A stretch of 64,000 nt of DNA from assembly GCF_056712565.1 (NCBI RefSeq), contig NZ_CM160072.1; one strand, given 5' to 3'. The translations under genes were made by a program, and so were the position numbers. Below the pieces are notes generated by a model that was not told the DNA's origin, made no database searches, and saw only the letters and a list, made by a program, of their open reading frames with translations. Shown piece by piece: positions 2,975 to 34,010 of this stretch (its first letter is position 1; every line of letters begins with the position of its first letter).

Positions 2975-4260
2975 TTCTGCTCGCGTTCGATAGCGCGCCA
3001 GCCGATATCTTTCCGGCAGAAGCAGTCGTCCCAATGGATATCGGTCATTAAGGCATAAGCGCGTTTCTGCGCTTCTGCCACGGTATGACCCAGCGCGGTA
3101 ACGCACAGTACGCGCCCGCCGCTGGTCACTACCTGCTCGTCATCCGCTAGTTTCGTGCCCGCGTGGAACACTTTGCCGTCTGCCACTTCTTCCAGCGGCA
3201 GGCCGTGGATCACATCGCCGGTGCGGTAATCGCCCGGATATCCACCCGCAGCCATCACCACGCCGAGAGAAGCGCGTTCATCCCACTCGGACGTTTTCTC
3301 GTCCAGCTTGCCTTCACAGGCCGCCAGGCAGAGCTCAACCAGATCGGACTTCATGCGCAGCATAATCGGCTGGGTTTCCGGATCGCCAAAGCGGCAGTTA
3401 AATTCAATAACCTTCGGATTGCCCTGTTTGTCGATCATCAGGCCCGCGTAGAGAAAACCAGTGTAGGTGTTGCCTTCCGCCGCCATGCCTTTCACGGTTG
3501 GCCAGATGATACGCTCCATCGTGCGCTGATGAACCTCATCGGTCACTACTGGCGCAGGGGAGTAAGCGCCCATCCCGCCGGTGTTCGGCCCGGTATCTTT
3601 ATCGCCTACGCGTTTGTGATCCTGGCTGGTGGCCATCGGCAGCACATGCTCGCCGTCCACCATCACGATAAAGCTCGCTTCTTCGCCGTCGAGGAACTCT
3701 TCGATAACAATGCGATGACCCGCGTCGCCAAACGCGTTGCCCGCCAGCATGTCGCGCACGGCGGCTTCAGCTTCTTCCAGCGTCATCGCCACGATAACGC
3801 CTTTCCCGGCGGCCAGACCGTCCGCTTTAATGACGATTGGCGCGCCTTTCTCACGCAGATACGCCAGCGCAGGTTCTACCTCGGTGAAGTTCTGGTATTC
3901 CGCTGTGGGAATGTTATGGCGGGCCAGAAAGTCTTTGGTGAATGCTTTAGAACCTTCCAGTTGTGCAGCACCTGCGGTTGGGCCGAAGATTTTCAGCCCG
4001 GCGGCGCGGAAGGTATCGACTACGCCTTTCACCAGCGGCGCTTCCGGGCCGACGATGGTTAGATCTACCTTTTCGTTTTGTGCGAAATCCAGCAGCGCCG
4101 GGATATCGGTTACGCCGATAGCGACGTTCTGTAGCGCGGGTTCCAGCGCAGTGCCTGCATTACCCGGAGCAACAAAAACAGTTTCAACCAGCGGCGACTG
4201 AGCCGCTTTCCAGGCCAGCGCGTGCTCGCGCCCGCCGTTACCAATCACTAATACTTTCAT
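2971..4260 (-). CDS. purD: phosphoribosylamine-glycine ligase (GAR synthetase)
   Basis: 429-aa ORF starting MKVLVIGNGGREHALAWK, ATP-grasp family; purHD gene pair as in K-12. Confidence 0.93.
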   Translation of the reverse strand: MKVLVIGNGGREHALAWKAAQSPLVETVFVAPGNAGTALEPALQNVAIGVTDIPALLDFAQNEKVDLTIVGPEAPLVKGVVDTFRAAGLKIFGPTAGAAQLEGSKAFTKDFLARHNIPTAEYQNFTEVEPALAYLREKGAPIVIKADGLAAGKGVIVAMTLEEAEAAVRDMLAGNAFGDAGHRIVIEEFLDGEEASFIVMVDGEHVLPMATSQDHKRVGDKDTGPNTGGMGAYSPAPVVTDEVHQRTMERIIWPTVKGMAAEGNTYTGFLYAGLMIDKQGNPKVIEFNCRFGDPETQPIMLRMKSDLVELCLAACEGKLDEKTSEWDERASLGVVMAAGGYPGDYRTGDVIHGLPLEEVADGKVFHAGTKLADDEQVVTSGGRVLCVTALGHTVAEAQKRAYALMTDIHWDDCFCRKDIGWRAIEREQN

Positions 4261-4271
4261 CTATTGCTCCA

Positions 4272-5861
4272 TTAATGGCGGAAGTGGCGCATGTCGGTGA
4301 AGAGCATCGCAATACCGTGCTCGTCGGCGGCGGCAATCACTTCGTCATCACGGATGGAACCGCCAGGCTGGATTACACAGGTCACGCCCGCAGCGGCGGC
4401 GGCATCAATACCGTCGCGGAACGGGAAGAACGCGTCAGAAGCCATCGAGGAACCTTTCACTTCCAGACCTTCATCGGCGGCTTTAATACCGGCGATTTTC
4501 GCGGAGTACACGCGGCTCATCTGGCCCGCGCCAATACCGATGGTCATATTGTTTTTGGCATAGACGATAGCGTTGGATTTCACGAACTTCGCCACTTTCC
4601 AGCAGAACAGCGCATCACGCAATTCCTGTTCGGTCGGCTGGCGTTTGGTGACGACGCGCAGTTCTTCTGCACCGACCATCCCCAGATCGCGATCCTGAAC
4701 CAGCAGACCGCCGTTCACGCGTTTGAAATCAAGACCCGGAACACGCTCGCCCCACTGACCGCAGGTCAGAACGCGTACGTTTTGCTTGGCGGCGGTGATT
4801 TTCAGGGCTTCTTCGCTGGCGGACGGCGCAATAATCACTTCGACGAACTGACGAGAAATGATGGCCTGCGCGGTTTCAGCATCCAGTTCGCGGTTAAAGG
4901 CAATGATGCCGCCGAATGCGGAGGTTGGGTCGGTTTTGTACGCGCGATCGTAAGCATCAAGAATGGAATTGCCGATAGCCACGCCGCAAGGGTTGGCGTG
5001 TTTCACAATCACACATGCCGGCTCGGCGAACTCTTTCACGCACTCCAGCGCCGCATCGGTGTCGGCGATGTTGTTATAAGAGAGGGCTTTACCTTGAACC
5101 TGGGTTGCAGTAGCAACGGAGGCTTCTTTCACATTCTCTTCTATATAGAAGGCAGCCTGCTGGTGGCTGTTCTCGCCGTAACGCATATCCTGCTTCTTAA
5201 TGAAGTTCAGGTTCAGCGTGCGTGGGAAGCGACCGGCGGCTTCTTTGCTTTCACCGTGGTAAGCCGGAACCATGCTGCCGAAGTAGTTGGCAATCATGCT
5301 GTCGTAGGCGGCGGTGTGTTCGAAGGCTTTGATGGCAAGGTCAAAGCGAGTTTCCAGAGTCAGGGAGCCTTCATTGGCATCTATCTCTTTAATAATGGCG
5401 TCGTAGTCGCTGCTCTTCACCACGATTGCGACATCTTTATGGTTCTTGGCGGCAGAGCGCACCATCGTCGGGCCGCCGATATCGATGTTCTCAACCGCAT
5501 CTTCCAGCGAGCAGCCTTCACGAGCAACGGTCTGGGCGAACGGATACAGGTTAACAACCACCATATCGATAGGCTGGATCTGATGTTCTTCCATAATGGT
5601 ATCGTCCTGGCCGCGACGGCCCAGAATTCCACCATGTACTTTCGGATGCAGGGTCTTCACGCGTCCATCCATCATCTCCGGGAAACCGGTGTAATCGGAA
5701 ACTTCGGTTACCGGCAGACCTTTTTCTGCTAACAGACGGGCTGTGCCCCCTGTAGACAGCAGCTCCACACCGCGTGCGGAAAGTGCCTGGGCGAATTCGA
5801 CGATACCGGCTTTGTCAGAAACACTGAGCAGAGCGCGGCGGACTGGACGACGTTGTTGCAT
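4272..5861 (-). CDS. purH: bifunctional AICAR formyltransferase / IMP cyclohydrolase
   Basis: 529-aa ORF starting [19 protein letters not shown], immediately upstream of purD on the same strand. Confidence 0.93.
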
Positions 5862-6149
5862 GGTAAATCCCCTGGATTTGACTATTACAGAGAGCGTTAG
5901 CTGAATTTTTCGCGAAAAACTCAGCTAACGCCCCTAACGGGGCATCCTTATTTTTCGCCCGCATTGTAACGAAAACGTTTGCGCAACGCTCGCGAATTTT
6001 TCTCTTTCAATGGTGATCACAATTTTGACAGTGTTTACCGTGGGAAAAATACAGAAATTACATTGATGATTGTGGATAACTCTGTGCGTAAAAAGGTATA
6101 AAGCGGGGTTTTGCTGGGGAATGCAGCAGTCAGTCATTTTTCTGCAATT

Positions 6150-6300
6150 TTTCTATTGCGGCCTGCGGAGAACTCCCTATAATGCGCCTCCATCGACACG
6201 GCGGATGTGAATCACTTCACACAAACAGCCGGTTCGGTTGAAGAGAAAAATCCTGAAATTCAGGGTTGACTCTGAAAGAGGAAAGCGTAATATACGCCAC
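6150..6300 (+). promoter_or_regulatory. rRNA operon tandem promoters P1/P2
   Basis: P1-like -10 TATAAT at 6178-6183 followed by GC-rich discriminator (GCGCC); P2-like -35 TTGACT at 6266-6271 and -10 TAATAT at 6288-6293; AT-rich UP-like sequence upstream. Confidence 0.7.
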
Positions 6301-6477
6301 CTCGCGACAGTGAGCTGAAAGCCGCGTCGCAACTGCTCTTTAACAATTTATCAGACAATCTGTGTGGGCACTCGAAGATACGGATTCTTAACGTCGCAAG
6401 ACGAAAAATGAATACCAAGTCTCAGGAGTGAACACGTAATTCATTACGAAGTTTAATTCTTTGAGCATCAAACTTTT

Positions 6478-8019
<1,542 letters not shown>

Positions 8020-8104
8020 CCTTAAAGAAGCGTACTTTGCAGTGCTCACACAGATTGTCTGATAGAAAGTGAAAAGCAAGGCGTCTTGCGAAGCAGACTG
8101 ATAC

Positions 8105-8180
8105 GTCCCCTTCGTCTAGAGGCCCAGGACACCGCCCTTTCACGGCGGTAACAGGGGTTCGAATCCCCTAGGGGACGCCA
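8105..8180 (+). tRNA. gltV: tRNA-Glu (UUC) in 16S-23S spacer
   Basis: 76-nt sequence GTCCCCTTCGTCTAGAGGCCCAGGACACCGCCCTTTCACGGCGGTAACAGGGGTTCGAATCCCCTAGGGGACGCCA matches E. coli tRNA-Glu2 with encoded CCA. Confidence 0.95.
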
Positions 8181-8373
8181 CTTGCTGGTTTGTGAGTGAA
8201 AGTCACCTGCCTTAATATCTCAAAACTCATCTTCGGGTGATGTTTGAGATATTTGCTCTTTAAAAATCTGGATCAAGCTGAAAATTGAAACACTGAACAA
8301 CGAGAGTTGTTCGTGAGTCTCTCAAATTTTCGCAACACGATGATGAATCGCAAGAAACATCTTCGGGTTGTGA

Positions 8374-11276
<2,903 letters not shown>

Positions 11277-11370
11277 TACAACGCCGAAGATGTTTTGGCG
11301 GATGAGAGAAGATTTTCAGCCTGATACAGATTAGATTAACCGGCGACAAGCGGGTTAATGAAACAGAATT

Positions 11371-11490
11371 TGCCTGGCGGCCTTAGCGCGGTGGTCCCAC
11401 CTGACCCCATGCCGAACTCAGAAGTGAAACGCCGTAGCGCCGATGGTAGTGTGGGGTCTCCCCATGCGAGAGTAGGGAACTGCCAGGCAT
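11371..11490 (+). rRNA. rrfE: 5S ribosomal RNA
   Basis: 120-nt sequence TGCCTGGCGGCC...GGGAACTGCCAGGCAT matching E. coli 5S rRNA. Confidence 0.95.
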
Positions 11491-11502
11491 CAAATTAGAA
11501 AA

Positions 11503-11530
11503 ACCCCGGTCAATAAGGCCGGGGTTTTTT
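11503..11530 (+). terminator. rho-independent terminator of rRNA operon
   Basis: GC stem CCCCGGTC...GGCCGGGG followed by a T-run directly after 5S. Confidence 0.8.
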
Positions 11531-11564
11531 GCATATCAATTATTTGCATGATGAAGGGAATCTC

Positions 11565-11948
11565 ATGTCAGTTCTGTATATCCAAATTCGTCGTAATCAA
11601 ATTACTGTTCGCGATCTTGAAAGCAAACGTGAAGTGTCAGGAGATGCTGCCTTCAGTAACCAGCGCCTGTTAATCGCCAATTTCTTTGTTGCAGAAAAAG
11701 TTCTGCAAGATCTTGTTCTGCAACTCCACCCACGTTCAACCTGGCATTCTTTTTTGCCAGCAAAACGTATGGATATTGTTGTGAGCGCGCTGGAAATGAA
11801 TGAGGGCGGTTTGTCACAGGTTGAGGAACGCATTCTTCATGAAGTGGTCGCAGGGGCAACGTTAATGAAATATCGCCAGTTCCACATCCATGCGCAATCA
11901 GTGGTACTCAGTGATAGTGCGGTCCTGGCAATGTTTAAGCAGAAATAA
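11565..11948 (+). CDS. yjaA: stress-response protein YjaA
   Basis: 127-aa product from internal Met (MSVLYIQIRRNQ...) of ORF 11529-11948; position between rrnE and yjaB as in K-12. Confidence 0.8.
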   Translation: MSVLYIQIRRNQITVRDLESKREVSGDAAFSNQRLLIANFFVAEKVLQDLVLQLHPRSTWHSFLPAKRMDIVVSALEMNEGGLSQVEERILHEVVAGATLMKYRQFHIHAQSVVLSDSAVLAMFKQK

Positions 11949-12011
11949 TCATGTCACCATTGGTGGGTACGAAACCTAAAGTTCAGCCCACCGGGATGAG
12001 AAAAAAACCGC

Positions 12012-12455
12012 CTACACCCCCACATATGCCAGATTCAGCAATGGATACGGTTTCCCCAAATCGTCCACCTCAGAGCGTCCCGTAACCTTAAAACCCACCT
12101 TCTTATAGAACCCAACCGCCTGCTCATTTTGCTCATTAACATTGGTTGTCAGTTCCGGGGCCATTGAGAGCGCATGCTTCACCAGCATCCGACCCACGCC
12201 GCAGCCGCGCACATCAGGATCGATAAACAGCGCATCCATATGCTGCCCACTTAACAACATAAACCCAACCGGCCGATCCCGCTCATTAACCGCGACCCAC
12301 AACGGTGCTTCCGGCAGAAAGGAATGCACCAGCTCTTCCAGCTCGGCCCGATACTCTGCTGATAAAAAATCGTGAGTGGCATCGACAGAACGACACCAAA
12401 TCGCAACGAGTTCCTCCCCCTCCTCATGCCGTGAGCGTCGAATACTAATAACCAT
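12012..12455 (-). CDS. yjaB: GNAT family N-acetyltransferase YjaB
   Basis: 147-aa ORF with acetyl-CoA binding motif (RGCGVGRMLVKHAL); K-12 synteny. Confidence 0.85.
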   Translation of the reverse strand: MVISIRRSRHEEGEELVAIWCRSVDATHDFLSAEYRAELEELVHSFLPEAPLWVAVNERDRPVGFMLLSGQHMDALFIDPDVRGCGVGRMLVKHALSMAPELTTNVNEQNEQAVGFYKKVGFKVTGRSEVDDLGKPYPLLNLAYVGV

Positions 12456-23242: not shown

Positions 23243-23251
23243 GTGATAACA

Positions 23252-23276
23252 CCGGGGTATTTGCCCCGGTTTTTAA
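23252..23276 (+). terminator. rho-independent terminator after metH
   Basis: Hairpin CCGGGGTATTTGCCCCGG followed by TTTTTAA directly after metH stop. Confidence 0.8.
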
Positions 23277-23295
23277 TGTCATAAATAATGGATTA

Positions 23296-23622
23296 TTGAA
23301 CATGATAAAAATTGATGAAATAGATTTTTTCGCTTTCGAAGGATGTTCAGAGTCCGAAGTTACTGAACTATTAGGAAAAAAACCAACAGGTTATAATGAT
23401 TGGATGATTAATATAAAAACAGGTGTGGAGTGGGTATTTTATGATGGTCGTTATTGGTTAGATTTTCGTAAATCCAAAGAGGGTATAAGGTGTATCTCAT
23501 GCAGTATTCTGTATCACGATAAAAGTAAAGGGCGTATCGATGTCTTATTTAGTGAAGGTATAGCTGACAGAGGTTTAAAAAATACGGGTGGAGTGTTAAT
23601 CCAAAAACGCCCGCAATTATAA
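23296..23622 (+). CDS. hypothetical protein (AT-rich accessory ORF 1, no recognised family)
   Basis: 108-aa ORF in markedly AT-rich DNA; no TM segment or signal peptide; weak RBS so start (23296 or 23302) is uncertain; not recognised by me. Confidence 0.45.
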   Translation: MNMIKIDEIDFFAFEGCSESEVTELLGKKPTGYNDWMINIKTGVEWVFYDGRYWLDFRKSKEGIRCISCSILYHDKSKGRIDVLFSEGIADRGLKNTGGVLIQKRPQL

Positions 23623-23664
23623 TAATTCCTGGTAATATTTGTTTTCGTAAAAAGGATTTACTTT

Positions 23665-24114
23665 ATGCAACGTCAATATAAAAAATACATTCTTCTTTTT
23701 TGGGGTGTCATGGATGTTATCGCGATAGCCACATATCTGTTCTACTCGCTTGGTAATGGTCGTATCCCTTTTTATTCCGATATCGTTCATTCACTTTCTT
23801 TACTTAAGGATATCGGTGTTGAAGGCGGTTTTTACGCTTATGCAGTCGCCACTGTTACGCTACAAATAGTATTATTGCTCTCTTTATTCTTTTCTGCGCA
23901 ATGTTTTTTAAGACAAAAATTATTTAGTTTCTCTTTTTTGGCGATTCAGGAGTTTATGCGTTTTGCTACCGTAAGCTGTTCAATCTCCGTAATACCGTTG
24001 TTACTTAATTATTTTTATTCACAGGATCTGGTCTTAAATATTTCGTTGTTTATCTTCTCAGAGGTCACAAAAGTGACAACGATTATCTGGTGTAAACGAC
24101 AGGGGAAAGTGTGA
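23665..24114 (+). CDS. hypothetical small integral membrane protein (predicted 4 TM helices), AT-rich accessory ORF 2
   Basis: 149-aa ORF with four hydrophobic stretches; plausible SD AAGGA about 8 nt upstream of ATG; AT-rich codon usage. Confidence 0.55.
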   Translation: MQRQYKKYILLFWGVMDVIAIATYLFYSLGNGRIPFYSDIVHSLSLLKDIGVEGGFYAYAVATVTLQIVLLLSLFFSAQCFLRQKLFSFSFLAIQEFMRFATVSCSISVIPLLLNYFYSQDLVLNISLFIFSEVTKVTTIIWCKRQGKV

Positions 24115-24284
24115 CAGAAATAGCAACAGATACAGGTGGATTTTTATATAAATGCCTTTTTAAATGCTTTCTTGTATAAATCTCTTATACTGAAAGTACA
24201 TACAAGAGAAATGCCTGGATAAAAACAACGTGATTAGAAAAATCTTAACAGGAAAATGCATAACAAAAAGGAGAACCTGATTCC

Positions 24285-25924: not shown

Positions 25925-26000
25925 CCCTGAAGGCCTGATAAGACGCGTAAAGCGTCGCATCAGGCACTATGAACAAGATGCCGGATCATGCATCCGGCAA
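25925..26000. repeat. REP (repetitive extragenic palindromic) element(s)
   Basis: GCCTGATAAGACGCG...CGCATCAGGC and GCCGGATCATGCATCCGGCA palindromes between yjbB and pepE. Confidence 0.75.
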
Positions 26001-26005
26001 TTCAC

Positions 26006-26695
26006 TTAAAAACGGTGACCCGCTTCCAGCGGCACCGCTTCTTCACCAGCCTTAAACACATAAGTGGTGTTCGGGCCACCCAGCGTAGCGTGACCTTTAC
26101 TTACTGTGATCCAGTTACCTTCCGGCAGACCAATAATCGTCAGTTCTGGCGCGACGACCAGCAGTTCGCGAATACGCTGCTCACGGGTTTCACCTTTATG
26201 GCCTTCCGGCAGCGCGTTGGTGAAGTGCGGGTTGATTTGTAGCGGGAACAGATTTAGCGCATCGAAACCTTGCGGATCGACAATCGGCATATCGTTGGTG
26301 GTACGAATGGTTGGGCAAGCAAGGTTAGCGCCTGCGCTCCAGCCAATATACAGCGCGCCACGTTTCACCACGTCAGTAATGGGTGCCAGCAGCCCGCGCT
26401 CGCGGCACTGTTTCAGCAACTGGAAAGTATTACCGCCGCCGACAATCACAATTTCCGCATTTTCAATCGCGGCAACGGGATCGACAACGCTATGAATACC
26501 GGTGACAGAAACACCCAGCGGAGCGAGAACCGCAGCCGTTTTCGCTGTGTAATCATCCCAGGTCTGCGTTACGCCAGCGAAAGGAATAAATACCGCAGAA
26601 CGGCGCCCCTGCAACTGTTCAGCAATCAGCGGCAGCGCGTGTTCCAGCCAGGCTTTACCCGGCAGCGTCGAGTTACTCAATAAAAGCAGTTCCAT
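26006..26695 (-). CDS. pepE: dipeptidase E (alpha-aspartyl dipeptidase)
   Basis: 229-aa ORF starting [19 protein letters not shown]; K-12 synteny. Confidence 0.92.
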
Positions 26696-26817: not shown

Positions 26818-26920
26818 TGCCTGATGCGCTACGCTTACCTGGCCTACCAGATAACTGCAATATATTGAATTTTCGAGATTATGTAGGCCGAATAAGGCTT
26901 CATTCCGCATCCGGCATAAA
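26818..26920. repeat. REP/BIME-like palindromic elements
   Basis: CTGATGCGCTACGCTTACCTGGCCTAC and GTAGGCCGAATAAGGC...CGCATCCGGCA units. Confidence 0.7.
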
Positions 26921-27076
26921 CAATGTGCACTTTGCCACCAATTTGAGCGCCCCTTAAGGCGCTGATGTTTTTTTATCCTTCTCGTGTACATTGTGCCACT
27001 TCTGCAATCAGCCGCACATCAGGTCGCGAAGTTGCCGCGGCGACCAGCCAGCGACATGCAGAGTTAAGTAGCGCGA

Positions 27077-28306
27077 TTAATCATGGGAAATTGCCTCTGC
27101 ATGGGCGAGCAGGTATTGCTCCGCCTCACCGGACCAGATCCCCTGATGACGCGCCAGAATTGCCGCCAGTGCTTGATCCTGAATCTGCGTGAGTGACGTC
27201 AGCGGCAGGTATTTCCCGGTATACACCAGCTTTTTGCCGCCGCCGACGGCAGGCAATTCAAGCGTGGTTTCGCCCGCGGCATTCAGCCCAAGAATATGTG
27301 TTACCACTTTTGCGGCCTGCACTTTTTTCTCTTCAATCAATTTGACCGCTGCGCGCATGTCGTCGGTATTGCCGCCTGATGTGCCCACGTAGTGGGTAAA
27401 TGCATAATGCACATCGTAGAAATTAATTGGCGCGCTGAAGTGCTTATCCTGCGGTCCGGCGAAGAAATTCAGACAACCATCTGTCGCCAGCAAGGAAGAG
27501 GCGAGAGTCACCAGTCCTTCATTAGGCACAAAGACGAAAATATCATCGAAGCCGTGACCGCCACTCAGTGCCATTAACGTATCAAATGCTGCATCGGCGG
27601 CATTGAGATAATGAATCAGTGTTTGCGGTTCTGATGGATAGTGCTTGCGTGCATAACTCAATTTGTCGTTGTCGGTATCGGTAATGACGAGCAGCGAAGG
27701 GTTAACGGGTCCATGTAGCGCATAATCAATCGCCAACAGTCCCATTGGTCCGGTGCCGCCGAGGATCAGCGTGCGCCCTTGCGGGCGAATCCCCATCGTG
27801 TGGTTATAACTACCTTCCTGAAGATGATAGTTGGCGTTGAACGCGCCAATCACGCAGGAAAGCGGTTCAACCAGCGAGCCTTCAAAATAGGTTTCGCCGT
27901 CGTATGCCAGCAGGCAATCTTGTTCCATGACCTCGTTGGGAATAACCACATGCGTCGCTTCGCCGCCTACCCACGGGAAGGAGTAGCCGGGGCAATCCGG
28001 GCGGTCGGGGAGTTGCAGGTTGGCCTGAATCACATAACGCTGACCCGGCTGGAATTTGTGCTGCCACTTTTTACCCACGGCCAGAATATCGCCGCAAAAT
28101 TCGTGGCCGATGATGATGGGATTGGTCGCCACATCGTCGGGTACTTTTTTATGGTTTTCACCCAGATTGGCCTCTTTCCAGGAAGAGAGGCACAGGCTGT
28201 CAGTGACCACCGTCGCGAGGATTTCATCCTCCTGCATTTCAGGAAGGTCAAAGGTTTCCAGACGCAGGTCACGTTTGCCATAAAGACGCAGAGCTGTTGT
28301 TTTCAT
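27077..28306 (-). CDS. sorE: L-sorbose-1-phosphate reductase (Zn-dependent dehydrogenase family)
   Basis: About 409-aa product (MKTTALRLYG...) of ORF 27077-28318; last gene of a sorCDFBAME-ordered cluster. Confidence 0.8.
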   Translation of the reverse strand: MKTTALRLYGKRDLRLETFDLPEMQEDEILATVVTDSLCLSSWKEANLGENHKKVPDDVATNPIIIGHEFCGDILAVGKKWQHKFQPGQRYVIQANLQLPDRPDCPGYSFPWVGGEATHVVIPNEVMEQDCLLAYDGETYFEGSLVEPLSCVIGAFNANYHLQEGSYNHTMGIRPQGRTLILGGTGPMGLLAIDYALHGPVNPSLLVITDTDNDKLSYARKHYPSEPQTLIHYLNAADAAFDTLMALSGGHGFDDIFVFVPNEGLVTLASSLLATDGCLNFFAGPQDKHFSAPINFYDVHYAFTHYVGTSGGNTDDMRAAVKLIEEKKVQAAKVVTHILGLNAAGETTLELPAVGGGKKLVYTGKYLPLTSLTQIQDQALAAILARHQGIWSGEAEQYLLAHAEAISHD

Positions 28307-28357
28307 AAACCACCTCATGTTGAGCGATGACCCCGGCAGTCGTGCCGGGGCGAAGAA

Positions 28358-29182
28358 TCAGGACAGGAAGCCCAGCGCATTACCGATAATCCCTAAACCA
28401 AACAGGGCGAAAATCAGCCATACCGGGTTAATTTTTTTGTTGAGCAGACGAACCATCAGCAGCGTCAGACCGAGCGCCAGCAAACCAGGGCAAAGTTGGT
28501 CGAGGATGTTCTGCACGGTTATGGTGACGGTGGCACCATCGGCGGCAGGCGTTTGTGAAACCACCAACGGTACGTTGATTGACGTCCATTTGGTCACCAG
28601 CACGCCCATCACAAACAGCCCGAGAATCGACGCGCCTTCGGTGAGTTTTTGCAGCAAATTACCGCCCATATCGCTGACGATATTCACCCCTTTGCGAAAG
28701 CCGAGCTGTAGGCCATACCACTTCATCGCCAGACGCACCGCGTTGAAAATAAAGAAGAACAGTAGGGGGCCGAGAATGTTGCCCGAAAGTGCCAGAGATG
28801 CGCCGAGCGCGGCGGTAATCGGGCGCAGCGTTCCCCAGACCAGTGGATCTCCAACTCCTGCCAATGGTCCCATCAGACCGACTTTGATGCCGTTAATGGT
28901 ACCGTCATCAATTTCCGCGCCGTTGGCTCGCGCCTCTTCCATGGCGGCAGTGACGCCGATGACCGGGCCACATACGGCTGGCGTGGTATTGAAGAACACC
29001 AGGTGTCGCCTGAGCGCCGCAACCTGATCCTCTTTTAATGGGTAAAGTCGTTTGATGGCGGGGATCATGTCGTAGCAAAAACCCAGCCCGTGAATACGTT
29101 CAAAGTTAAAGGATGCCTGTTGCAGGTTGGAGCGCAGAAACATGCTCACCAGATCGCTGCGTGTAATTTTTCTCTGTTCCAT
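28358..29182 (-). CDS. sorM: PTS sorbose-specific EIID component
   Basis: Mannose/sorbose-family IID protein; start at MEQRKITRSDL (alternative upstream ATG at 29212 overlaps sorA). Confidence 0.8.
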   Translation of the reverse strand: MEQRKITRSDLVSMFLRSNLQQASFNFERIHGLGFCYDMIPAIKRLYPLKEDQVAALRRHLVFFNTTPAVCGPVIGVTAAMEEARANGAEIDDGTINGIKVGLMGPLAGVGDPLVWGTLRPITAALGASLALSGNILGPLLFFFIFNAVRLAMKWYGLQLGFRKGVNIVSDMGGNLLQKLTEGASILGLFVMGVLVTKWTSINVPLVVSQTPAADGATVTITVQNILDQLCPGLLALGLTLLMVRLLNKKINPVWLIFALFGLGIIGNALGFLS

Positions 29183-29192
29183 GATGGCTCCG

Positions 29193-29990
29193 TTAATCAT
29201 CAAGTTGGTCAAGGGCGGTGATAGTGGTGGTCTGGGGATGTGGTTCAGCTTTACGCCACTGTGGATTTAACTGGATGTAGAGCAGGGCCATGATCACGCC
29301 GACGCCACCGAACGCCAGCAGACTGAGATCGAGGTAGCCACCTGCGAGGAAACCGAGGAAAAAGAAAGGCATCAAATATTTCACGCCCATCATGCGAAGC
29401 ACCATGGCGTAACCGACCACCACGATAAAACCGCCAGCAATCTGCAGTCCACGGGTCACAAATTCGGGAATGGCGCTCAGCATATTGCTCACCATATCAG
29501 CGCTGACGAACAGCGAGACAATCAGTGCCGGAATAGCAACGCGCAGTGCCTGCACGCCAAGCGCGGAGACATGCAGAATATCGAGAGTGCGAAACCGTGC
29601 TTCTTCCGCTGCTTTATCCGCCGCGTGCTGGAACACTACGGTGATGGTACGGGCAAACACCGTCAGCACCTGGCCTGCCGCAGCCACAGGCAACGCGATG
29701 GCGATTCCGGTGGCGATGCTTTGCTGACCAACGATAACCAGAATGGCGGAGATTATGCTGGCGAGTGCAGAATCCGGAGATTGCGCCGCGCCGACGTTCA
29801 TCCAGCCGAGAGCTATCAATTCCAGCGTACCACCGAGCATAATTCCGGTTTTTAAATCACCGAGAATTAAACCAATCACCGTACAGGCAATTAACGGACG
29901 ATGAGTCTGAAATTCATCCAGCACGCTGCCCATTCCGGCAATACAGGAAAAAAGAAATATAGCAATGATTTGTAGGGTACTTATTTCCAT
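29193..29990 (-). CDS. sorA: PTS sorbose-specific EIIC component
   Basis: 265-aa polytopic membrane protein of mannose/sorbose IIC type. Confidence 0.82.
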   Translation of the reverse strand: MEISTLQIIAIFLFSCIAGMGSVLDEFQTHRPLIACTVIGLILGDLKTGIMLGGTLELIALGWMNVGAAQSPDSALASIISAILVIVGQQSIATGIAIALPVAAAGQVLTVFARTITVVFQHAADKAAEEARFRTLDILHVSALGVQALRVAIPALIVSLFVSADMVSNMLSAIPEFVTRGLQIAGGFIVVVGYAMVLRMMGVKYLMPFFFLGFLAGGYLDLSLLAFGGVGVIMALLYIQLNPQWRKAEPHPQTTTITALDQLDD

Positions 29991-30055
29991 GATTTGTCAC
30001 CTTTTAAGTGTCGTCATCCCTGCCTGTTAAAGCATATGTACACAGGCGCTATTAT

Positions 30056-30550
30056 TTAATTTGCGATTAACTGTTCGTTTATTTTGTCGATAATATTGAT
30101 TGAGGGATCTGACGCTACGACGCGTAAATCCAGTATGACGCCAAGATTATTTAACTCATGAAATGCGTTAATATCATCGTCATCTAATGAAACTGCTTTG
30201 GTTAACTGTTTCTTACCAGGACGCCAGGCCATACCGCCAATATTCAGGGTACCTATTTTTACCCCCTGGCGAACCATTGCTAAGGCATCCTGTGGGCGAG
30301 TGAAAAGATAAAAAACGGTTTCGTCCTGATATTGCGGGTTGTGATAAACCGCGACGGCTTTTTCAATATTGACCACGTTAACCTTCATTCCCGGTGGCGC
30401 AGCCTGACGCAATAATGTCCGGCGAACTTCATCGTTATAAACTTCGTCATTGCAGATAATAATGCGTTGGGCGTTAGCCACTTTAGACCAGACGGTAGTG
30501 ACCTGGCCGTGGATCAGGCGGTCATCAATGCGGGCGAGCGTAATGTTCAT
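30056..30550 (-). CDS. sorB: PTS sorbose-specific EIIB component
   Basis: 164-aa ORF with mannose-family IIB N-terminus MNITLARIDDRLIHGQV (phospho-His). Confidence 0.85.
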   Translation of the reverse strand: MNITLARIDDRLIHGQVTTVWSKVANAQRIIICNDEVYNDEVRRTLLRQAAPPGMKVNVVNIEKAVAVYHNPQYQDETVFYLFTRPQDALAMVRQGVKIGTLNIGGMAWRPGKKQLTKAVSLDDDDINAFHELNNLGVILDLRVVASDPSINIIDKINEQLIAN

Positions 30551-30957
30551 CAGAAATCCTCCTCTGCTGTTGCTACCTGTCTCCAGACGACGCAGGTTTG
30601 CTTTGCGATTTGCGTCAGGTGTTCACACAGTTCATCAACATTCATGCTGTCCTGGTTATCAACCAGTTCGAGCGCCAGCGGCAGAGAAAGGCCGCTGATT
30701 ACCCGCAGACGAGGATTGCGCATCGCAAGCATCGCTGCCGCATTCCACGGGCTGCCGCACTGTAAATCCACGGCGATTAGCCACTCGTCATGATTGTGAA
30801 TGCTCACTAACTTCTCCAGCTTTGCCACAATGTCTCCGGCGTTCTCGCCGGGCACAAATTCAACTGCCTCGACCCTGGCATCGCCGTACACCATCTGAAC
30901 CGATTCCAGCATGGCGCAGGCTAATTTGCCGTGGGCGCAAAAAATGGCATTGACCAT
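30550..30957 (-). CDS. sorF: PTS sorbose-specific EIIA component
   Basis: 135-aa ORF with mannose-family IIA N-terminus (CAHGKLA, phospho-His); stop/start overlap with sorB. Confidence 0.82.
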   Translation of the reverse strand: MVNAIFCAHGKLACAMLESVQMVYGDARVEAVEFVPGENAGDIVAKLEKLVSIHNHDEWLIAVDLQCGSPWNAAAMLAMRNPRLRVISGLSLPLALELVDNQDSMNVDELCEHLTQIAKQTCVVWRQVATAEEDF

Positions 30958-30966
30958 AAAGCCTCC

Positions 30967-31773
30967 TTAGCCGCGCGTTTTGCCGCCTGCAATGTTAGTG
31001 GTTACTCCGGTGATATAGCTGGCGCGTTCAGACAGCAGATAACAAACAAAATCAGCCACTTCTGCTAATCTTCCGGCGCGCCCAATAGGAATGGCGTTTT
31101 TGGTATAGCCTTCACGCAGCTGCTCGACGGTGATATTGCGCGTCCACGCCAGCGCTTCTTCATATTCCGGCGTGCGCAGTCCTGTTTTTTCCAGAATCCC
31201 CGGCGCGATACCGACCACACGGATACCGTGCTTGCCCAGCTCTTTCGACCAGGAGCGCGTGAAGCTATTGAGCGCGGCTTTGGTCGCGGCGTAACAGCTT
31301 TGGCCTTCTGAGCCTTCCAGCCCACTTTCTGAGGAAACATTCACAATCACGCCATCATGTTGTTTGACCATCTGTCGCGCCACCGCCTGCGACATCAGAA
31401 AAACGCCTTTCTGGTTGATATTGACCATTTTTTCGAATGCAGCTTCGTTGAGTTCATACTGCCCGGCAGGCGCTTTCTCATCGACCAGCAGACGCGGGAA
31501 ATTGACCCCGGCGTTGTTAACCAGACCGTCGATGCGACCAAAACGCTGGATAATTTCTGCTACCGTATGATTTATCTCTTTGGCGCTGGAAATATCGGTC
31601 GGCCAGAACTGATAACCTTTATGGCTTTCATATTGACCATCGCCACCGTGAATATCGACCATCTGTACATTCGCGCCTTGTGCTAATAATTCCTCTACAA
31701 TCGCCAGACCAATACCGGATGCGCCACCGGTGACAATAATGATTTTATCCTGCAAATTTAACCACGTTTGCAT
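30967..31773 (-). CDS. sorD: sorbitol(glucitol)-6-phosphate 2-dehydrogenase (SDR family)
   Basis: 268-aa short-chain dehydrogenase (TGGASGIG Rossmann motif; YAATKAA catalytic region). Confidence 0.82.
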   Translation of the reverse strand: MQTWLNLQDKIIIVTGGASGIGLAIVEELLAQGANVQMVDIHGGDGQYESHKGYQFWPTDISSAKEINHTVAEIIQRFGRIDGLVNNAGVNFPRLLVDEKAPAGQYELNEAAFEKMVNINQKGVFLMSQAVARQMVKQHDGVIVNVSSESGLEGSEGQSCYAATKAALNSFTRSWSKELGKHGIRVVGIAPGILEKTGLRTPEYEEALAWTRNITVEQLREGYTKNAIPIGRAGRLAEVADFVCYLLSERASYITGVTTNIAGGKTRG

Positions 31774-31842
31774 AACAGACTCCTGATTTTAGATAGTAGG
31801 GACCCGCCGTAATTTTTATTACGGTAAACATCGGGAAGATTT

Positions 31843-32790
31843 TTATTTCAGTAATAGTTCAGCTGTGCTGCTATTCGTTACCAGACAATTAATATATTTT
31901 CCACGCAGTGCACCAACAATTCCGCTGTATTTTTCTTCGCTCATGGCAATGCCAATGGAATACCGTGCCTGCTTTAATTTATTCATTTCGATAGAGAGTG
32001 TTTTTTCGCTCATATTCGTTTCAACCATTGCGCCGTGAATATCAAAAAAGCGCGAGCAAATATCGCCAGCAACCTGGCGGGCATTCAGGTCGTCACTCTC
32101 TTCACCACCATAAAACGCATGCCAGTTAGCGCCGTCGCGAATGGCCGGTGAGCCAATTCCCACCAGGGCGACATCCAGATTATCCCAGTAGGCAGAGATG
32201 GTTTTAAAGTGCTGAGACTGCATGATCCCATTACGAATTAATGGGTTATCCAGCAGCGCCGGAAAATCCGCGAGATGCGATTCCCCTTTCAGCTTCGCTG
32301 CCGCGCTGTAGGTTAATGTGTTTACGTGATAGCGGCTTTCGAGTTTACCGGACGGGCCGCCAATAATCGGCACGCAAATTAACTGCCGCGATTGCCCCGC
32401 CTGCGGCAAGTTTTCAACCAGTGCGCTCACCGCGCGGCCCCAGGAAAAACCGACAATATCGCCAGGTTCCAGCAAGCGATCCAGCAGTTGCGCGCCGTGT
32501 AACCCCATCATCGCCAGTTGAATATCTTCATCCTCATCATTTCCTGACACCACCACAACGTCTTTCAGGCCAAACTTTTGCTTCACTTGCTGCTCCAGCC
32601 AGAGATTTTCGTTGTAGTCATAGTTGATGGCGATGGTGACAATTCCCTGATCGCGGCCTCGTTTAAGCAAGCGGCTGATGGTAGTGCGATAAATACCCAG
32701 TTCGCGCGCAATTTGCGCCTGCGTCATATCCTGTTCGTAATAGAGTTGGGCAATCTTCACAATCAAACGGATATCGTCACTGTTTTCCAT
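31843..32790 (-). CDS. sorC: sorbose operon transcriptional regulator, SorC family
   Basis: 315-aa product from MENSDDIRLIVKIAQLYYEQDMTQAQIARELG (HTH) with AGGAGG 5 nt upstream; C-terminal sugar-phosphate binding domain. Confidence 0.8.
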   Translation of the reverse strand: MENSDDIRLIVKIAQLYYEQDMTQAQIARELGIYRTTISRLLKRGRDQGIVTIAINYDYNENLWLEQQVKQKFGLKDVVVVSGNDEDEDIQLAMMGLHGAQLLDRLLEPGDIVGFSWGRAVSALVENLPQAGQSRQLICVPIIGGPSGKLESRYHVNTLTYSAAAKLKGESHLADFPALLDNPLIRNGIMQSQHFKTISAYWDNLDVALVGIGSPAIRDGANWHAFYGGEESDDLNARQVAGDICSRFFDIHGAMVETNMSEKTLSIEMNKLKQARYSIGIAMSEEKYSGIVGALRGKYINCLVTNSSTAELLLK

Positions 32791-33137
32791 TGCCGCCTCC
32801 TGGTTCTGCACATTTGTGCAAATACGCTTTCTCACCGCTTGATCTGATATAACCCCATCATGATGGCCTTTCAAAGCGATTTTTCACTCTTTGCATGGGG
32901 GGAAATAGCGCTTTCTCTTGCACATTTGTTTCTCTGCGTAGTAGTCATCAGCACAGGTGTGCAGCGATGCGTAATTTGTTGATTATTCTTATTTTGCCAG
33001 GCAAATTTGCATCGTACTTCCGGAGACACTTTTGTGATAAAAGGCGTGGCAGATCACATTTAATTTCGACGTTGCCGCATAACCCTGTTTTTCCCCGCTA
33101 AGAGGTACGGTATATTCCGCGTTTTACAGGAGAATTT

Positions 33138-34010
33138 ATGCTGCCCGACTCATCAGTCCGTTTAAATAAATACATCAGCGAAAGCGGAATTTGCTCACGC
33201 CGCGAAGCGGATCGCTATATCGAGCAAGGCAATGTGTTCCTTAATGGCAAGCGAGCCACCATTGGCGATCAGGTGAAACCCGGCGACGTTGTGAAAGTAA
33301 ATGGTCAGTTGATTGAGCCTCGGGAATCCGAAGATTTGGTACTTATCGCCCTGAACAAGCCCGTCGGTATTGTCAGCACCACCGAAGATGGCGAGCGCGA
33401 TAACATTGTCGATTTCGTTAACCACAGCAAACGCGTGTTCCCGATTGGCCGCCTGGATAAAGATTCCCAGGGGCTGATTTTCCTCACCAATCACGGCGAT
33501 CTGGTGAATAAGATCCTCCGTGCGGGTAACGATCATGAGAAAGAGTATCTGGTGACGGTTGATAAACCGATTACCGATGAATTTATTCGTGGTATGGGGG
33601 CGGGAGTACCGATCCTCGGGACGGTAACTAAAAAGTGCAAAGTCAAAAAAGAAGCACCGTTTGTCTTCCGCATTACCCTGGTGCAGGGGCTGAACCGTCA
33701 GATTCGTCGCATGTGCGAGCACTTTGGTTACGAAGTGAAAAAGCTGGAACGTACGCGCATTATGAACGTCAGCTTAAGCGGCATTCCGCTGGGTGAGTGG
33801 CGCGATTTAACCGACGATGAGTTAATCGATCTCTTTAAGCTCATTGAAAATTCCTCTTCCGAGGCAAAACCTAAAGCGAAGGCCAAACCGAAAACGGTAG
33901 GCATCAAACGTCCAGTCGTTAAGATGGAAAAAACGGCGGAAAAAGGCGGTCGCCCGGCGTCCAACGGTAAGCGTTTTACCTCGCCGGGGCGCAAAAAGAA
34001 GGGGCGTTAA
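33138..34010 (+). CDS. rluF: 23S rRNA pseudouridine synthase RluF
   Basis: 290-aa ORF, S4 domain plus RsuA-type pseudouridine synthase core, basic C-terminal tail. Confidence 0.88.

What the first reader, a model, noticed from the sequence alone, without database searches (positions are those of the whole stretch)
27077..32874. Complete L-sorbose utilisation operon (sorCDFBAME) inserted between pepE and rluF
Seven co-directional genes encode, in order, a SorC-family regulator, an SDR-type glucitol-6-P dehydrogenase, mannose-family PTS EIIA, EIIB, EIIC and EIID, and a Zn-dependent sorbose-1-P reductase. This is exactly the gene order of the Klebsiella/E. coli sor operon. K-12 lacks this operon; pepE and rluF are adjacent there. 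It is a strain-variable metabolic island and is flanked by REP elements rather than obvious mobility genes.
Basis: partly seen in the sequence, partly recalled or inferred. Interest (0 to 1): 0.45.

Follow-up and report, generated by a model that had tools for sequence, protein, structure and literature searches.

The report
Known E. coli L-sorbose operon
This is the well-studied seven-gene operon that lets many E. coli strains grow on the sugar L-sorbose; it is an old resident of this chromosomal site that K-12 lost, not a recent insertion, and it carries the dead stub of an eighth gene.

Summary
Seven intact minus-strand genes, sorC-D-F-B-A-M-E, lie between pepE and rluF. The window is 100% identical to E. 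coli SF-468. The pepE-rluF interval is gap-free and 99.26% identical to CFT073, whose operon was shown experimentally to confer growth on L-sorbose. SorC and SorB are 86-87% identical to the K. pneumoniae sorbose proteins, far closer than to Man or Aga systems. So the identity and function are correct and already known.

Three parts of the interpretation need correcting:
- **Not an insertion.** The operon sits at rluF|sor|pepE in at least 8 enterobacterial genera. Its divergence matches the flanking genes, and it has no att repeats, tRNA, mobility genes or GC anomaly. The E. coli empty site (mostly phylogroups A and B1) reflects loss or allele replacement.
- **Not the complete ancestral unit.** 31 of 37 enterobacterial loci have an eighth gene, sdhL, whose start overlaps the sorE stop. 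The window keeps only its two ends (26956-27084), with about 700 bp deleted. 2680 E. coli genomes share this layout and 177 keep sdhL intact.
- **REPs on one side only, and sorC is shorter.** REPs lie on the pepE side. sorC starts at 32790, not 32874. The 275 bp upstream is conserved regulatory DNA.

Low interest.

The parts
31843..32790 (-). sorC, SorC-family regulator (315 aa), first gene of the operon
   Evidence: 86.3% identical over all 315 residues to K. pneumoniae SorC (PDB 2W48). Pfam Sugar-bind 266 bits. PGAP start. AGGAGG at 32801-32796.
30967..31773 (-). sorD, SDR-type D-glucitol-6-phosphate dehydrogenase (268 aa)
   Evidence: NCBIfam PRK06171 sorbitol-6-phosphate dehydrogenase, 500.6 bits against a cut-off of 304. 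One aa difference from CFT073.
30550..30957 (-). sorF, mannose-family PTS EIIA (135 aa)
   Evidence: TIGR00824 EIIA-man 145 bits against cut-off 98. The N-terminal FCAHG motif carries the family's phosphorylatable His (read from the translation).
30056..30550 (-). sorB, mannose-family PTS EIIB (164 aa)
   Evidence: 86.9% identical to K. pneumoniae IIB-Sor (PDB 1NRZ), 305 bits versus 171 for ManX. Protein identical to CFT073.
29193..29990 (-). sorA, PTS EIIC (265 aa)
   Evidence: TIGR00822 EII-Sor 422 bits against cut-off 340. Protein identical to CFT073.
28358..29182 (-). sorM, PTS EIID (274 aa by the PGAP start)
   Evidence: TIGR00828 471 bits against cut-off 293. Protein identical to CFT073.
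27077..28306 (-). sorE, L-sorbose-1-phosphate reductase (409 aa, MDR/zinc-ADH fold)
   Evidence: PGAP name sorE. Pfam ADH_N 30.4 bits against cut-off 23.5. GHEFCG motif in the translation. Two aa differences from CFT073.
26956..27084 (-). Dead remnant of the eighth gene, sdhL (shikimate-dehydrogenase-like, HI0607 class). The 5' piece is 27027-27084 and the 3' piece is 26956-27023; about 700 bp are deleted between them.
   Evidence: blastn against the intact gene in strain N4220121. The remnant translates to MINRAT* with a stop at codon 7. The ATGATTAA overlap with the sorE stop is retained.
26819..26915 (.). BIME: a Z2-type REP (26819-26847, plus strand) and a Y-type REP (26883-26915, minus strand), between pepE and the sdhL remnant
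   Evidence: Consensus matches with 2 and 1 mismatches, none expected by chance, and other family copies elsewhere in the window. Inverted arms. Absent from the eight-gene allele.
26946..26963 (.). GC-rich hairpin AGCGCCCCTTAAGGCGCT immediately 3' of the sdhL remnant
   Evidence: Terminator-like site; the T-run is on the plus strand. Its role as the operon's 3' end is inferred, not shown.
32791..33065 (-). Conserved sor regulatory region. Putative -35 TTTGAA (32875-32870) and -10 TTATAT (32852-32847). Palindrome TGCACAAATGTGCA (32807-32820) between the -10 and the RBS. Second GCAC-N4-GTGC palindrome (32951-32962). Half-site (32917-32929). GCAAATTTGC (33001-33010). CACAAAAGTG (33027-33036). CRP-half-like AAATGTGATC (33053-33062).
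   Evidence: Phylogenetic footprint across 17 taxa from Escherichia to Serratia and Erwinia. Repeats. GCAC-N4-GTGC occurs only 3 times in 64 kb, two of them here. Assigning these sites to SorC or CRP is inference.
33079..33137 (+). rluF promoter-proximal segment. The last 35 bp (33103-33137) are shared with the K-12 empty site. 33079-33102 is a diverged version of a family-wide motif (GATTATTTTTTATC...).

Best explanation
The region is the chromosomal L-sorbose utilisation operon of E. coli, in its common seven-gene form.

Pathway (established from Klebsiella and E. coli work): L-sorbose is taken up and phosphorylated by a four-subunit mannose-family PTS permease, SorF (IIA), SorB (IIB), SorA (IIC) and SorM (IID), giving L-sorbose-1-phosphate. 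SorE reduces this to D-glucitol-6-phosphate. SorD oxidises that to D-fructose-6-phosphate, which enters glycolysis. SorC, the first gene, regulates the operon.

Regulation (inferred here): transcription starts at a weak promoter about 50 bp upstream of sorC. One palindromic GCAC-N4-GTGC site lies just downstream of the -10 and a second lies about 143 bp upstream. This would suit a tetrameric regulator that represses by occupying or bridging the sites and activates when sorbose is present.

History (supported here): the operon is an old, vertically inherited resident of the rluF-pepE interval in Enterobacteriaceae, originally with an eighth, translationally coupled gene, sdhL. Most E. coli, including this strain, lost about 700 bp of sdhL in one old deletion and later gained a BIME next to the stub. 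Phylogroups A and B1, including K-12, mostly lack the whole operon through loss or replacement by an empty allele.
For: - Identity: 100% match to SF-468 with PGAP sorE annotation; family assignments above curated cut-offs; 86-87% identity to the K. pneumoniae SorC and SorB structures.
- Function: the 6442-bp pepE-rluF interval is gap-free and 99.26% identical to CFT073, with 7 aa changes in total and no stops. CFT073 c4981-c4987 cloned into DH5alpha conferred growth on L-sorbose (PMC2831201), and that study's forward primer maps to window 27047-27076. In ST131, which also lacks sdhL, the operon is sorbose-induced and a sorE deletion abolishes use of sorbose (PMC12817954). The pathway steps are stated in PMC13410766.
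- History: conserved synteny in 30 or more species of at least 8 genera. Per-gene nucleotide identity of sor genes is 74-86% and of flanks 77-85% for Citrobacter, Klebsiella, Raoultella, Enterobacter and Cedecea. All Escherichia outgroups are sor+. No boundary repeats, tRNA or GC anomaly. Published prevalence is above 86% in every phylogroup except A (9.6%) and B1 (12.1%) (PMC12817954).
- sdhL: remnant mapped; census of 2680 remnant-type versus 177 intact genomes; ATGATTAA overlap in 29 of 31 loci.
- Regulation: footprint.
Against: - No growth or expression data exist for this particular strain.
- The simple promoter scan found no consensus promoter upstream of sorC. The promoter and operator assignments rest on conservation only, and I could not access a published SorC operator.
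- The K-12 empty allele is not a clean deletion derivative of the Escherichia sor+ allele. Its rluF-proximal 24 bp is closer to the Klebsiella and Citrobacter consensus (18/24) than the E. coli sor+ allele is (11/24). About 55 bp of it match nothing fetched.
- Empty sites also exist in [Enterobacter] lignolyticus and, with a DUF2058 gene, in Salmonella.
- Pseudocitrobacter shows the block can move between genera by recombination.
- The simple 'ancestral, then lost' picture is therefore the most parsimonious reading but is not proven.
Confidence: 0.9

Rival explanations
1. One reading: a horizontally acquired metabolic island was inserted between pepE and rluF in sor+ strains, and K-12 shows the ancestral empty site.
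For: The operon is absent from 47% of complete E. coli genomes and from K-12. Empty or differently filled sites exist in [E.] lignolyticus and Salmonella. The K-12 allele has a family-consensus-like rluF promoter segment. The Pseudocitrobacter sor block (86-95% nt identity) is much closer to E. coli than its flanks (80-82%), which shows inter-genus exchange.
Against: The operon sits at the same locus in at least 8 genera, with sor divergence equal to flank divergence. E. albertii, E. whittamii and other divergent Escherichia lineages are all sor+. There is no integrase, transposase or tRNA; boundary repeats are no longer than chance (8 nt against a shuffle mean of 8.2); GC is 0.516 against 0.522 for the window. 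Absence is concentrated in the derived phylogroups A and B1 (PMC12817954).
Confidence: 0.12
2. The PTS belongs to another mannose-family system (mannose, fructoselysine, GalNAc) and the operon is not for sorbose.
For: The NCBIfam and Pfam models for the four PTS subunits are generic mannose/fructose/sorbose models, and PGAP gives the subunits generic names.
Against: SorB scores 305 bits against K. pneumoniae IIB-Sor versus 171 for ManX and 75 or less for Aga-type IIB. AgaF, AgaW, AgaE and ManX equivalog models score far below their cut-offs. The operon is near-identical to the CFT073 operon that confers growth on L-sorbose (PMC2831201).
Confidence: 0.02
3. The operon is present but silent or decayed in this strain, as reported for Shigella, which keeps sor DNA but does not use sorbose.
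For: There is no phenotype for SF-468. The neighbouring sdhL is a pseudogene remnant, so decay has occurred at this locus. PMC2831201, citing Lehmacher and Bockemuhl, notes sorbose-negative strains that retain sor DNA.
Against: All seven ORFs are full length with no internal stops. Only 7 substitutions separate them from the functional CFT073 allele, and the regulatory motifs are intact.
Confidence: 0.05

Closest known systems
Klebsiella pneumoniae sorCDFBAME operon (Sprenger and Lengeler 1984, J Bacteriol 157:39, cited in PMC2831201; structures 2W48 SorC and 1NRZ IIB-Sor)
   Same: Same seven genes in the same order, the same chromosomal neighbourhood (rluF|sor|yjbB side) and 78-95% protein identity.
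   Different: In K. pneumoniae, sorE is followed by an intact, overlapping sdhL gene (junction). The window has only the stub. The published seven-gene name omits that gene.
E. coli CFT073 c4981-c4987 (PMC2831201) and the ST131 sor operon (PMC12817954)
   Same: Essentially the same allele: 99.26% identity over 6442 bp with no gaps; IIB, IIC and IID proteins identical; same sdhL stub and BIME.
   Different: Seven conservative amino-acid differences, in SorC, SorD, SorF and SorE.
Eight-gene allele of E. coli phylogroup F/ST648 (for example SMS-3-5, N4220121)
   Same: Same locus and the same seven sor genes, at 96-99.8% nt identity.
   Different: It keeps an intact 270-aa sdhL and lacks the BIME. 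PMC12817954 described sdhL as an ST648-specific insertion 'upstream' of the operon. The stub in this window and the cross-genus conservation show instead that sdhL lies downstream of sorE and is ancestral.
E. coli manXYZ mannose PTS
   Same: Same PTS family and subunit folds.
   Different: IIA and IIB are fused in ManX. ManX-IIB is much more distant (171 versus 305 bits). There are no linked reductase, dehydrogenase or SorC genes.

Membership tests
sor (L-sorbose PTS/catabolic) operon of Enterobacteriaceae | Seven co-directional genes in the order regulator, SDR dehydrogenase, EIIA, EIIB, EIIC, EIID, reductase | tested here: met
   ORFs and family scans; PGAP annotation of the identical record.
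sor (L-sorbose PTS/catabolic) operon of Enterobacteriaceae | Orthology to characterised K. pneumoniae Sor proteins, closer than to other mannose-family systems | tested here: met
   SorC 86.3% identical to 2W48; SorB 86.9% to 1NRZ (305 bits versus 171 for ManX). Klebsiella loci show 75-96% protein identity for all seven.
sor (L-sorbose PTS/catabolic) operon of Enterobacteriaceae | SorD is a sorbitol/glucitol-6-phosphate dehydrogenase-type SDR | tested here: met
   NCBIfam PRK06171, 500.6 bits against cut-off 304. TGGASGIG and YAATK motifs are visible in the translation.
sor (L-sorbose PTS/catabolic) operon of Enterobacteriaceae | SorE is an MDR-type (zinc-ADH fold) L-sorbose-1-P reductase | tested here: met
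   Pfam ADH_N is above its cut-off; ADH_zinc_N, at 29.6 bits, is just below its cut-off of 31.8. GHE motif present. PGAP names it sorE. 85-87% identical to Klebsiella SorE. Zinc binding itself was not tested.
sor (L-sorbose PTS/catabolic) operon of Enterobacteriaceae | Confers sorbose-inducible growth on L-sorbose | not testable with these tools
   Indirect only: 99.26% identity with 7 aa changes relative to the CFT073 allele shown to confer growth (PMC2831201), and ST131 mutant data (PMC12817954).
sor (L-sorbose PTS/catabolic) operon of Enterobacteriaceae | SorC-controlled promoter upstream of sorC | tested here: inconclusive
   Strongly conserved -35/-10-like elements and GCAC-N4-GTGC palindromes. 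There are no binding data, and the consensus promoter scan was negative.
Horizontally acquired genomic island | Integrase, transposase or other mobility genes, a tRNA target, or flanking direct repeats | tested here: not met
   All ORFs are accounted for by sor genes. No tRNA in 15000-45000. The longest shared boundary word is 8 nt, against a shuffle mean of 8.2.
Horizontally acquired genomic island | Atypical base composition | tested here: not met
   GC is 0.516 for the operon against 0.522 for the window and 0.51-0.55 for the flanks.
Horizontally acquired genomic island | Absent from the same locus in related species, with divergence discordant from the flanks | tested here: not met
   Same locus in at least 8 genera, and sor identity roughly equals flank identity. 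The exception is Pseudocitrobacter, where the block is anomalously similar.
SdhL class of shikimate-dehydrogenase-like proteins (HI0607, PDB 1NPY) | Full-length (about 270 aa) ORF matching NCBIfam PRK12550 / HI0607 | tested here: not met
   Only 58 nt of the 5' end and 68 nt covering the 3' end remain in the window, with a stop at codon 7. The intact gene in strain N4220121 scores 467 bits against PRK12550 and 378 bits against 1NPY.
REP/BIME elements of E. coli | Match to the REP consensus, membership of a dispersed repeat family, inverted pair arrangement | tested here: met
   26819-26847 (2 mismatches) and 26883-26915 (1 mismatch), with none expected by chance, and seven other family copies in the window. 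The consensus sequences were supplied from my own knowledge.

The most novel reading that the evidence does not exclude
The textbook seven-gene sor operon may be a truncated form. The ancestral enterobacterial unit is sorCDFBAME-sdhL. SdhL belongs to an orphan class of shikimate-dehydrogenase-like enzymes (HI0607 type) with no accepted physiological substrate. Its gene is translationally coupled to sorE and, in ST648, induced by L-sorbose (PMC12817954). If SdhL acts on a sorbose-pathway or related ketohexose metabolite, this linkage would give the class its first physiological context. The old deletion shared by most E. coli would then be a natural knock-out showing the gene is dispensable for growth on sorbose. 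That sdhL is ancestral and was deleted is well supported here (about 0.85). A sorbose-related catalytic role is speculative. It is weakened by the absence of sor linkage for SdhL genes outside Enterobacteriaceae and by only distant similarity to the SDH-family 5-ketofructose reductase (63 bits).
Probability: 0.3. Interest if true: 0.45.

Novelty: already known. Interest (0 to 1): 0.18.

Why it matters
The operon itself is established biology. It was characterised in Klebsiella in the 1980s and 1990s, verified functionally in E. coli CFT073 in 2010, and studied as a fitness and virulence-associated marker of high-risk E. coli lineages in 2025-26.

What this analysis adds is modest but corrective:
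- A 2026 paper says how E. coli 'acquired' the operon is undefined. The cross-genus synteny and matched divergence indicate old residence followed by loss, not acquisition.
- A 2025 paper treats sdhL as an ST648-specific insertion. The stub in this window, shared by about 2680 complete genomes, shows sdhL is the ancestral eighth gene and that most E. coli carry a deletion.
- The conserved 275-bp regulatory region gives concrete candidate SorC operators that can be tested.

Tried and rejected
- The MAFFT alignment of the left junction spread the sdhL stub across the 700-bp gap and was misleading. I replaced it with blastn.
- The consensus promoter scan found nothing upstream of sorC. I replaced it with a 17-taxon footprint.
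- The Rfam scan found no RNA family inside the operon. It gave only a sub-threshold REP-derived naRNA4 hit at 25932-25999 and a chance RNase P hit.
- I looked for att-like repeats at the boundaries and found none beyond chance.
- I searched for the origin of the K-12-specific 80 bp. No sor+ locus matches it. Its rluF-proximal third turned out to be the conserved rluF promoter motif. About 55 bp remain unexplained.
- I tested whether SdhL is generally linked to sorbose genes. It is not in Lautropia, in an unnamed Logan contig, or in a gpsA-cysE-sdhL context of the kind I recall (from memory) for Haemophilus.
- I considered SdhL as a 5-ketofructose reductase. Similarity to 7COK is only 63 bits. 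The Tatumella SDH-family enzyme makes D-fructose, and a Clostridium SDH homologue was inactive (PMC7954740). I kept this only as weak speculation.
- I tried to identify which sdhL allele the stub derives from. The result was inconclusive: 85-95% identity to all Escherichia alleles over only 126 nt.
- Lehmacher and Bockemuhl 2007, the earlier study of this locus, is not held in the library.

Full report
**1. What is in the sequence**

Between pepE (26006-26695, minus strand) and rluF (33138-34010, plus strand) there are seven co-directional ORFs on the minus strand. In transcription order they are:
- a SorC-family regulator: Pfam Sugar-bind, 266 bits, plus an N-terminal HTH;
- an SDR: NCBIfam PRK06171 'sorbitol-6-phosphate dehydrogenase', 500.6 bits against a cut-off of 304;
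- separate mannose-family PTS IIA, IIB, IIC and IID subunits, all above curated cut-offs;
- an MDR/zinc-ADH-fold dehydrogenase.

The window is 100% identical to E. coli SF-468, a blood isolate. There PGAP annotates the last gene as sorE, L-sorbose 1-phosphate reductase, and flags none of the seven as a pseudogene.

The coordinates need small corrections. PGAP and the alignment to the K. pneumoniae SorC crystal structure (residues 1-315 against 1-315) put the sorC start at the ATG at 32790, behind an AGGAGG. sorM starts at 29182 and sorE at 28306.

**2. Is it the sorbose system rather than another mannose-family PTS?**

- SorC is 86.3% identical over its full length to K. pneumoniae SorC (PDB 2W48).
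- SorB is 86.9% identical to K. pneumoniae IIB-Sor (PDB 1NRZ). It scores 305 bits there, against 171 for ManX-IIB and 75 or less for the N-acetylgalactosamine IIB proteins.
- The Aga and ManX equivalog models score far below their cut-offs.

Function is supported by near-identity to a validated allele. The whole 6442-bp pepE-rluF interval aligns without a gap to CFT073 at 99.26% identity. There are 7 amino-acid differences across the seven proteins and no internal stops, and the IIB, IIC and IID proteins are identical. [quoted passage not shown] That study's forward primer matches the window exactly at 27047-27076, so the seven genes are sufficient. In ST131, the operon is the most strongly sorbose-induced gene set, and a sorE deletion abolishes use of sorbose (PMC12817954). 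The pathway is PTS uptake to L-sorbose-1-P, reduction to D-glucitol-6-P, and oxidation to D-fructose-6-P, as stated in PMC13410766.

**3. Distribution in E. coli**

- The operon is present, with at least 80% of an 8.1-kb query covered, in 2865 of 5426 complete genomes, always between pepE and rluF.
- K-12 MG1655, C600 and others have pepE and rluF 211 bp apart.
- A published survey of 44,208 genomes found it in more than 86% of every phylogroup except A (9.6%) and B1 (12.1%) (PMC12817954).

**4. Not an insertion**

A scan of one genome per species with SorE returned 80 loci, and I mapped gene order in all of them. The order lysC-yjbD-rluF | sorC D F B A M E | (0-9 kb variable) | pepE-yjbB recurs in:
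- E. whittamii, E. albertii and two other divergent Escherichia lineages;
- Pseudocitrobacter (3 loci);
- Citrobacter (9 loci);
- Klebsiella grimontii, michiganensis, oxytoca, spallanzanii and indica, and K. pneumoniae;
- Raoultella (5 loci) and two 'Enterobacter sp.'.

Per-gene nucleotide identity to the window is 74-86% for the sor genes and 77-85% for yjbB, pepE, rluF, yjbD and lysC in Citrobacter, Klebsiella, Raoultella, Enterobacter and Cedecea. The operon is thus as old as its neighbours.

The interval has none of the marks of a mobile element:
- no mobility gene;
- no tRNA within 12 kb;
- boundary repeats no longer than chance, 8 nt against a shuffle mean of 8.2;
- ordinary GC, 0.516 against 0.522 for the window.

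The most parsimonious reading is long residence with loss in some lineages, not insertion in sor+ strains.

**5. Caveats to the loss model**

The K-12 empty site is not a clean deletion of the Escherichia sor+ allele. Eighty bp in the middle of its 211-bp spacer match no sor+ locus. Comparing the sequence upstream of rluF in 34 loci shows that the rluF-proximal third of those 80 bp is a family-wide motif, GAT(T/C)ATTTTTTATC...AAGGTAGGGTATATT. The motif is present both in sor+ Klebsiella, Citrobacter, Raoultella and Cedecea and in the empty sites of K-12 and [Enterobacter] lignolyticus. The Escherichia and Pseudocitrobacter sor+ allele is diverged there: 11/24 against K. grimontii, compared with 18/24 for K-12.

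Salmonella has rluF, a DUF2058 gene, then pepE, with no sor operon. Pseudocitrobacter sor genes are 86-95% identical to the window while its yjbB, pepE and lysC are 80-82%, so the block has been exchanged between genera by recombination. Within E. coli the operon is a recombination mosaic: identity per 200 bp ranges from 92% to 100% against a phylogroup-F strain.

The empty allele of phylogroups A and B1 may therefore have arrived by allelic replacement rather than by an in-situ deletion. About 55 bp of it remain unexplained.

**6. The eighth gene**

Strain N4220121 and 176 other complete genomes, including SMS-3-5, carry a 270-aa gene directly after sorE. It matches NCBIfam PRK12550 at 467 bits and H. 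influenzae HI0607 (PDB 1NPY) at 378 bits. From my own knowledge, HI0607 represents the 'SdhL' class of shikimate-dehydrogenase-like proteins, whose physiological role is unsettled; I could not check this in an accessible paper.

Its ATG overlaps the sorE stop as ATGATTAA. Of 37 loci with an enterobacterial-type sorE, 31 have sdhL there, and 29 of those have this overlap.

The window retains that junction, followed by:
- 58 nt of the sdhL 5' end (27027-27084);
- 68 nt covering its 3' end (26956-27023);
- about 700 bp missing between them, and a stop at codon 7.

2680 complete genomes share this left-end architecture at 80% or more coverage. The stub is 5-15% diverged from every Escherichia sdhL allele. 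Together these indicate one old deletion. A BIME made of two REPs (26819-26847 and 26883-26915) lies between the stub and pepE and is absent from the eight-gene allele.

PMC12817954 reported sdhL as lying 'upstream', as unique to ST648, as an ST-specific insertion, and as induced by sorbose. The present data reverse the polarity: sdhL is downstream of sorE, it is ancestral, and it has been deleted in most E. coli.

Whether SdhL has a sorbose-related role is open. Outside the Enterobacteriaceae its close homologues are not next to sor genes. Its similarity to the SDH-family 5-ketofructose reductase is distant (63 bits).

**7. Regulation (inferred)**

An alignment of the 300 bp upstream of sorC from 17 taxa, from Escherichia to Serratia, Erwinia and Pantoea, shows blocks of near-invariant sequence:
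- CTTTGAA, then 17 bp, then an invariant TTATATC embedded in a GG(G/A)TTATATCAGATCA consensus: a weak -35/-10 pair at 32875-32870 and 32852-32847;
- a near-invariant palindrome TGCACAAATGTGCA (32807-32820; one or two variant columns among the 17 taxa) between the -10 and the ribosome-binding site;
- a second GCAC-N4-GTGC palindrome at 32951-32962, centred about 143 bp from the first;
- a half-site at 32917-32929;
- GCAAATTTGC at 33001-33010;
- CACAAAAGTG at 33027-33036;
- AAATGTGATC at 33053-33062, which resembles a CRP half-site.

GCAC-N4-GTGC occurs only three times in the 64-kb window, and two of those are here. SorC-family regulators bind DNA as tetramers (PMC11229326). I recall from the Klebsiella literature that SorC both represses and activates; this was not checked here. 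A tetramer contacting the downstream and upstream palindromes is therefore a reasonable model, but no binding data were available, and the consensus promoter scan was negative.

This conserved block means the operon's functional unit extends to about 33065, roughly 70 bp from the rluF start codon.

**8. Verdict**

The finding is a correct identification of a well-known operon. It is ordinary for a phylogroup B2-type E. coli. The 'inserted island', 'complete' and 'flanked by REP elements' parts of the interpretation are not supported as stated. The additions made here are locus antiquity, the sdhL stub and its census, and the candidate operators. They are corrective details rather than a discovery, so interest is low.

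Noticed in passing
window 23243-24284: A low-GC (about 0.34) 1-kb islet between metH and yjbB holds two ORFs (23296-23622, 108 aa; 23665-24114, 149 aa, hydrophobic). They have no significant Pfam match and are annotated as hypothetical. The islet is present in 1132 of 5426 complete E. coli genomes, including CFT073 and the type strain. Unlike the sor operon, it has the composition of a truly acquired islet.
   Followed up: partly
window 25932-25999 (minus strand): Sub-threshold Rfam hit to naRNA4/CssrE (46 bits against a gathering score of 59.5) in the yjbB-pepE spacer. From my own knowledge these RNAs derive from REP elements, so this is probably another REP cluster; I did not check it.
   Followed up: no
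L006, L007, L083 (Pseudocitrobacter), positions about 4000-12100: The sor-sdhL block is 86-95% identical in nucleotides to E. coli, while the adjacent yjbB, pepE and lysC are only 80-82%. This indicates a fairly recent exchange of the block between the Escherichia and Pseudocitrobacter lineages by homologous recombination.
   Followed up: partly
L002 2293-2348 (K-12-type empty site): About 55 bp of the K-12 pepE-rluF spacer match nothing in any sor+ locus or in the Salmonella and [E.] lignolyticus outgroups. The adjacent rluF promoter motif in K-12 is closer to the Klebsiella and Citrobacter consensus than the E. coli sor+ allele is. The origin of the empty allele is unresolved.
   Followed up: partly
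L089-L091 (Salmonella enterica), about 9240-9790: Salmonella carries a 179-aa DUF2058 gene between rluF and pepE, where other genera have the sor operon. The sdhL-pepE spacer varies from 0 to 9 kb among Citrobacter and Klebsiella species. This interval is a hotspot for gene turnover.
   Followed up: no
L042 (E. albertii NBRC 107761), about 1517-2772: The sorE match is about 30 nt longer than in other loci, its tblastn E-value is much weaker (3e-160), and no stop codon sits at the expected position. This suggests a frameshifted or disrupted sorE in this strain.
   Followed up: no
L034, L036 (Enterococcus crotali, E. ureilyticus); L038-L048 (Gilliamella): The Enterococcus loci have the same sorC-D-F-B-A-M-E order at 30-74% protein identity, without sdhL. 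The Gilliamella loci have sorF-B-A-M-E followed by sorC, with no adjacent sorD. The core PTS-plus-reductase module is far more widespread than the enterobacterial operon.
   Followed up: no
window 28485-28885 and 27085-27285: Identity to the phylogroup-F allele drops locally to 92-94% inside sorM and at the 3' end of sorE, against a 98-100% background. This marks recombination mosaicism within the operon among E. coli lineages.
   Followed up: partly
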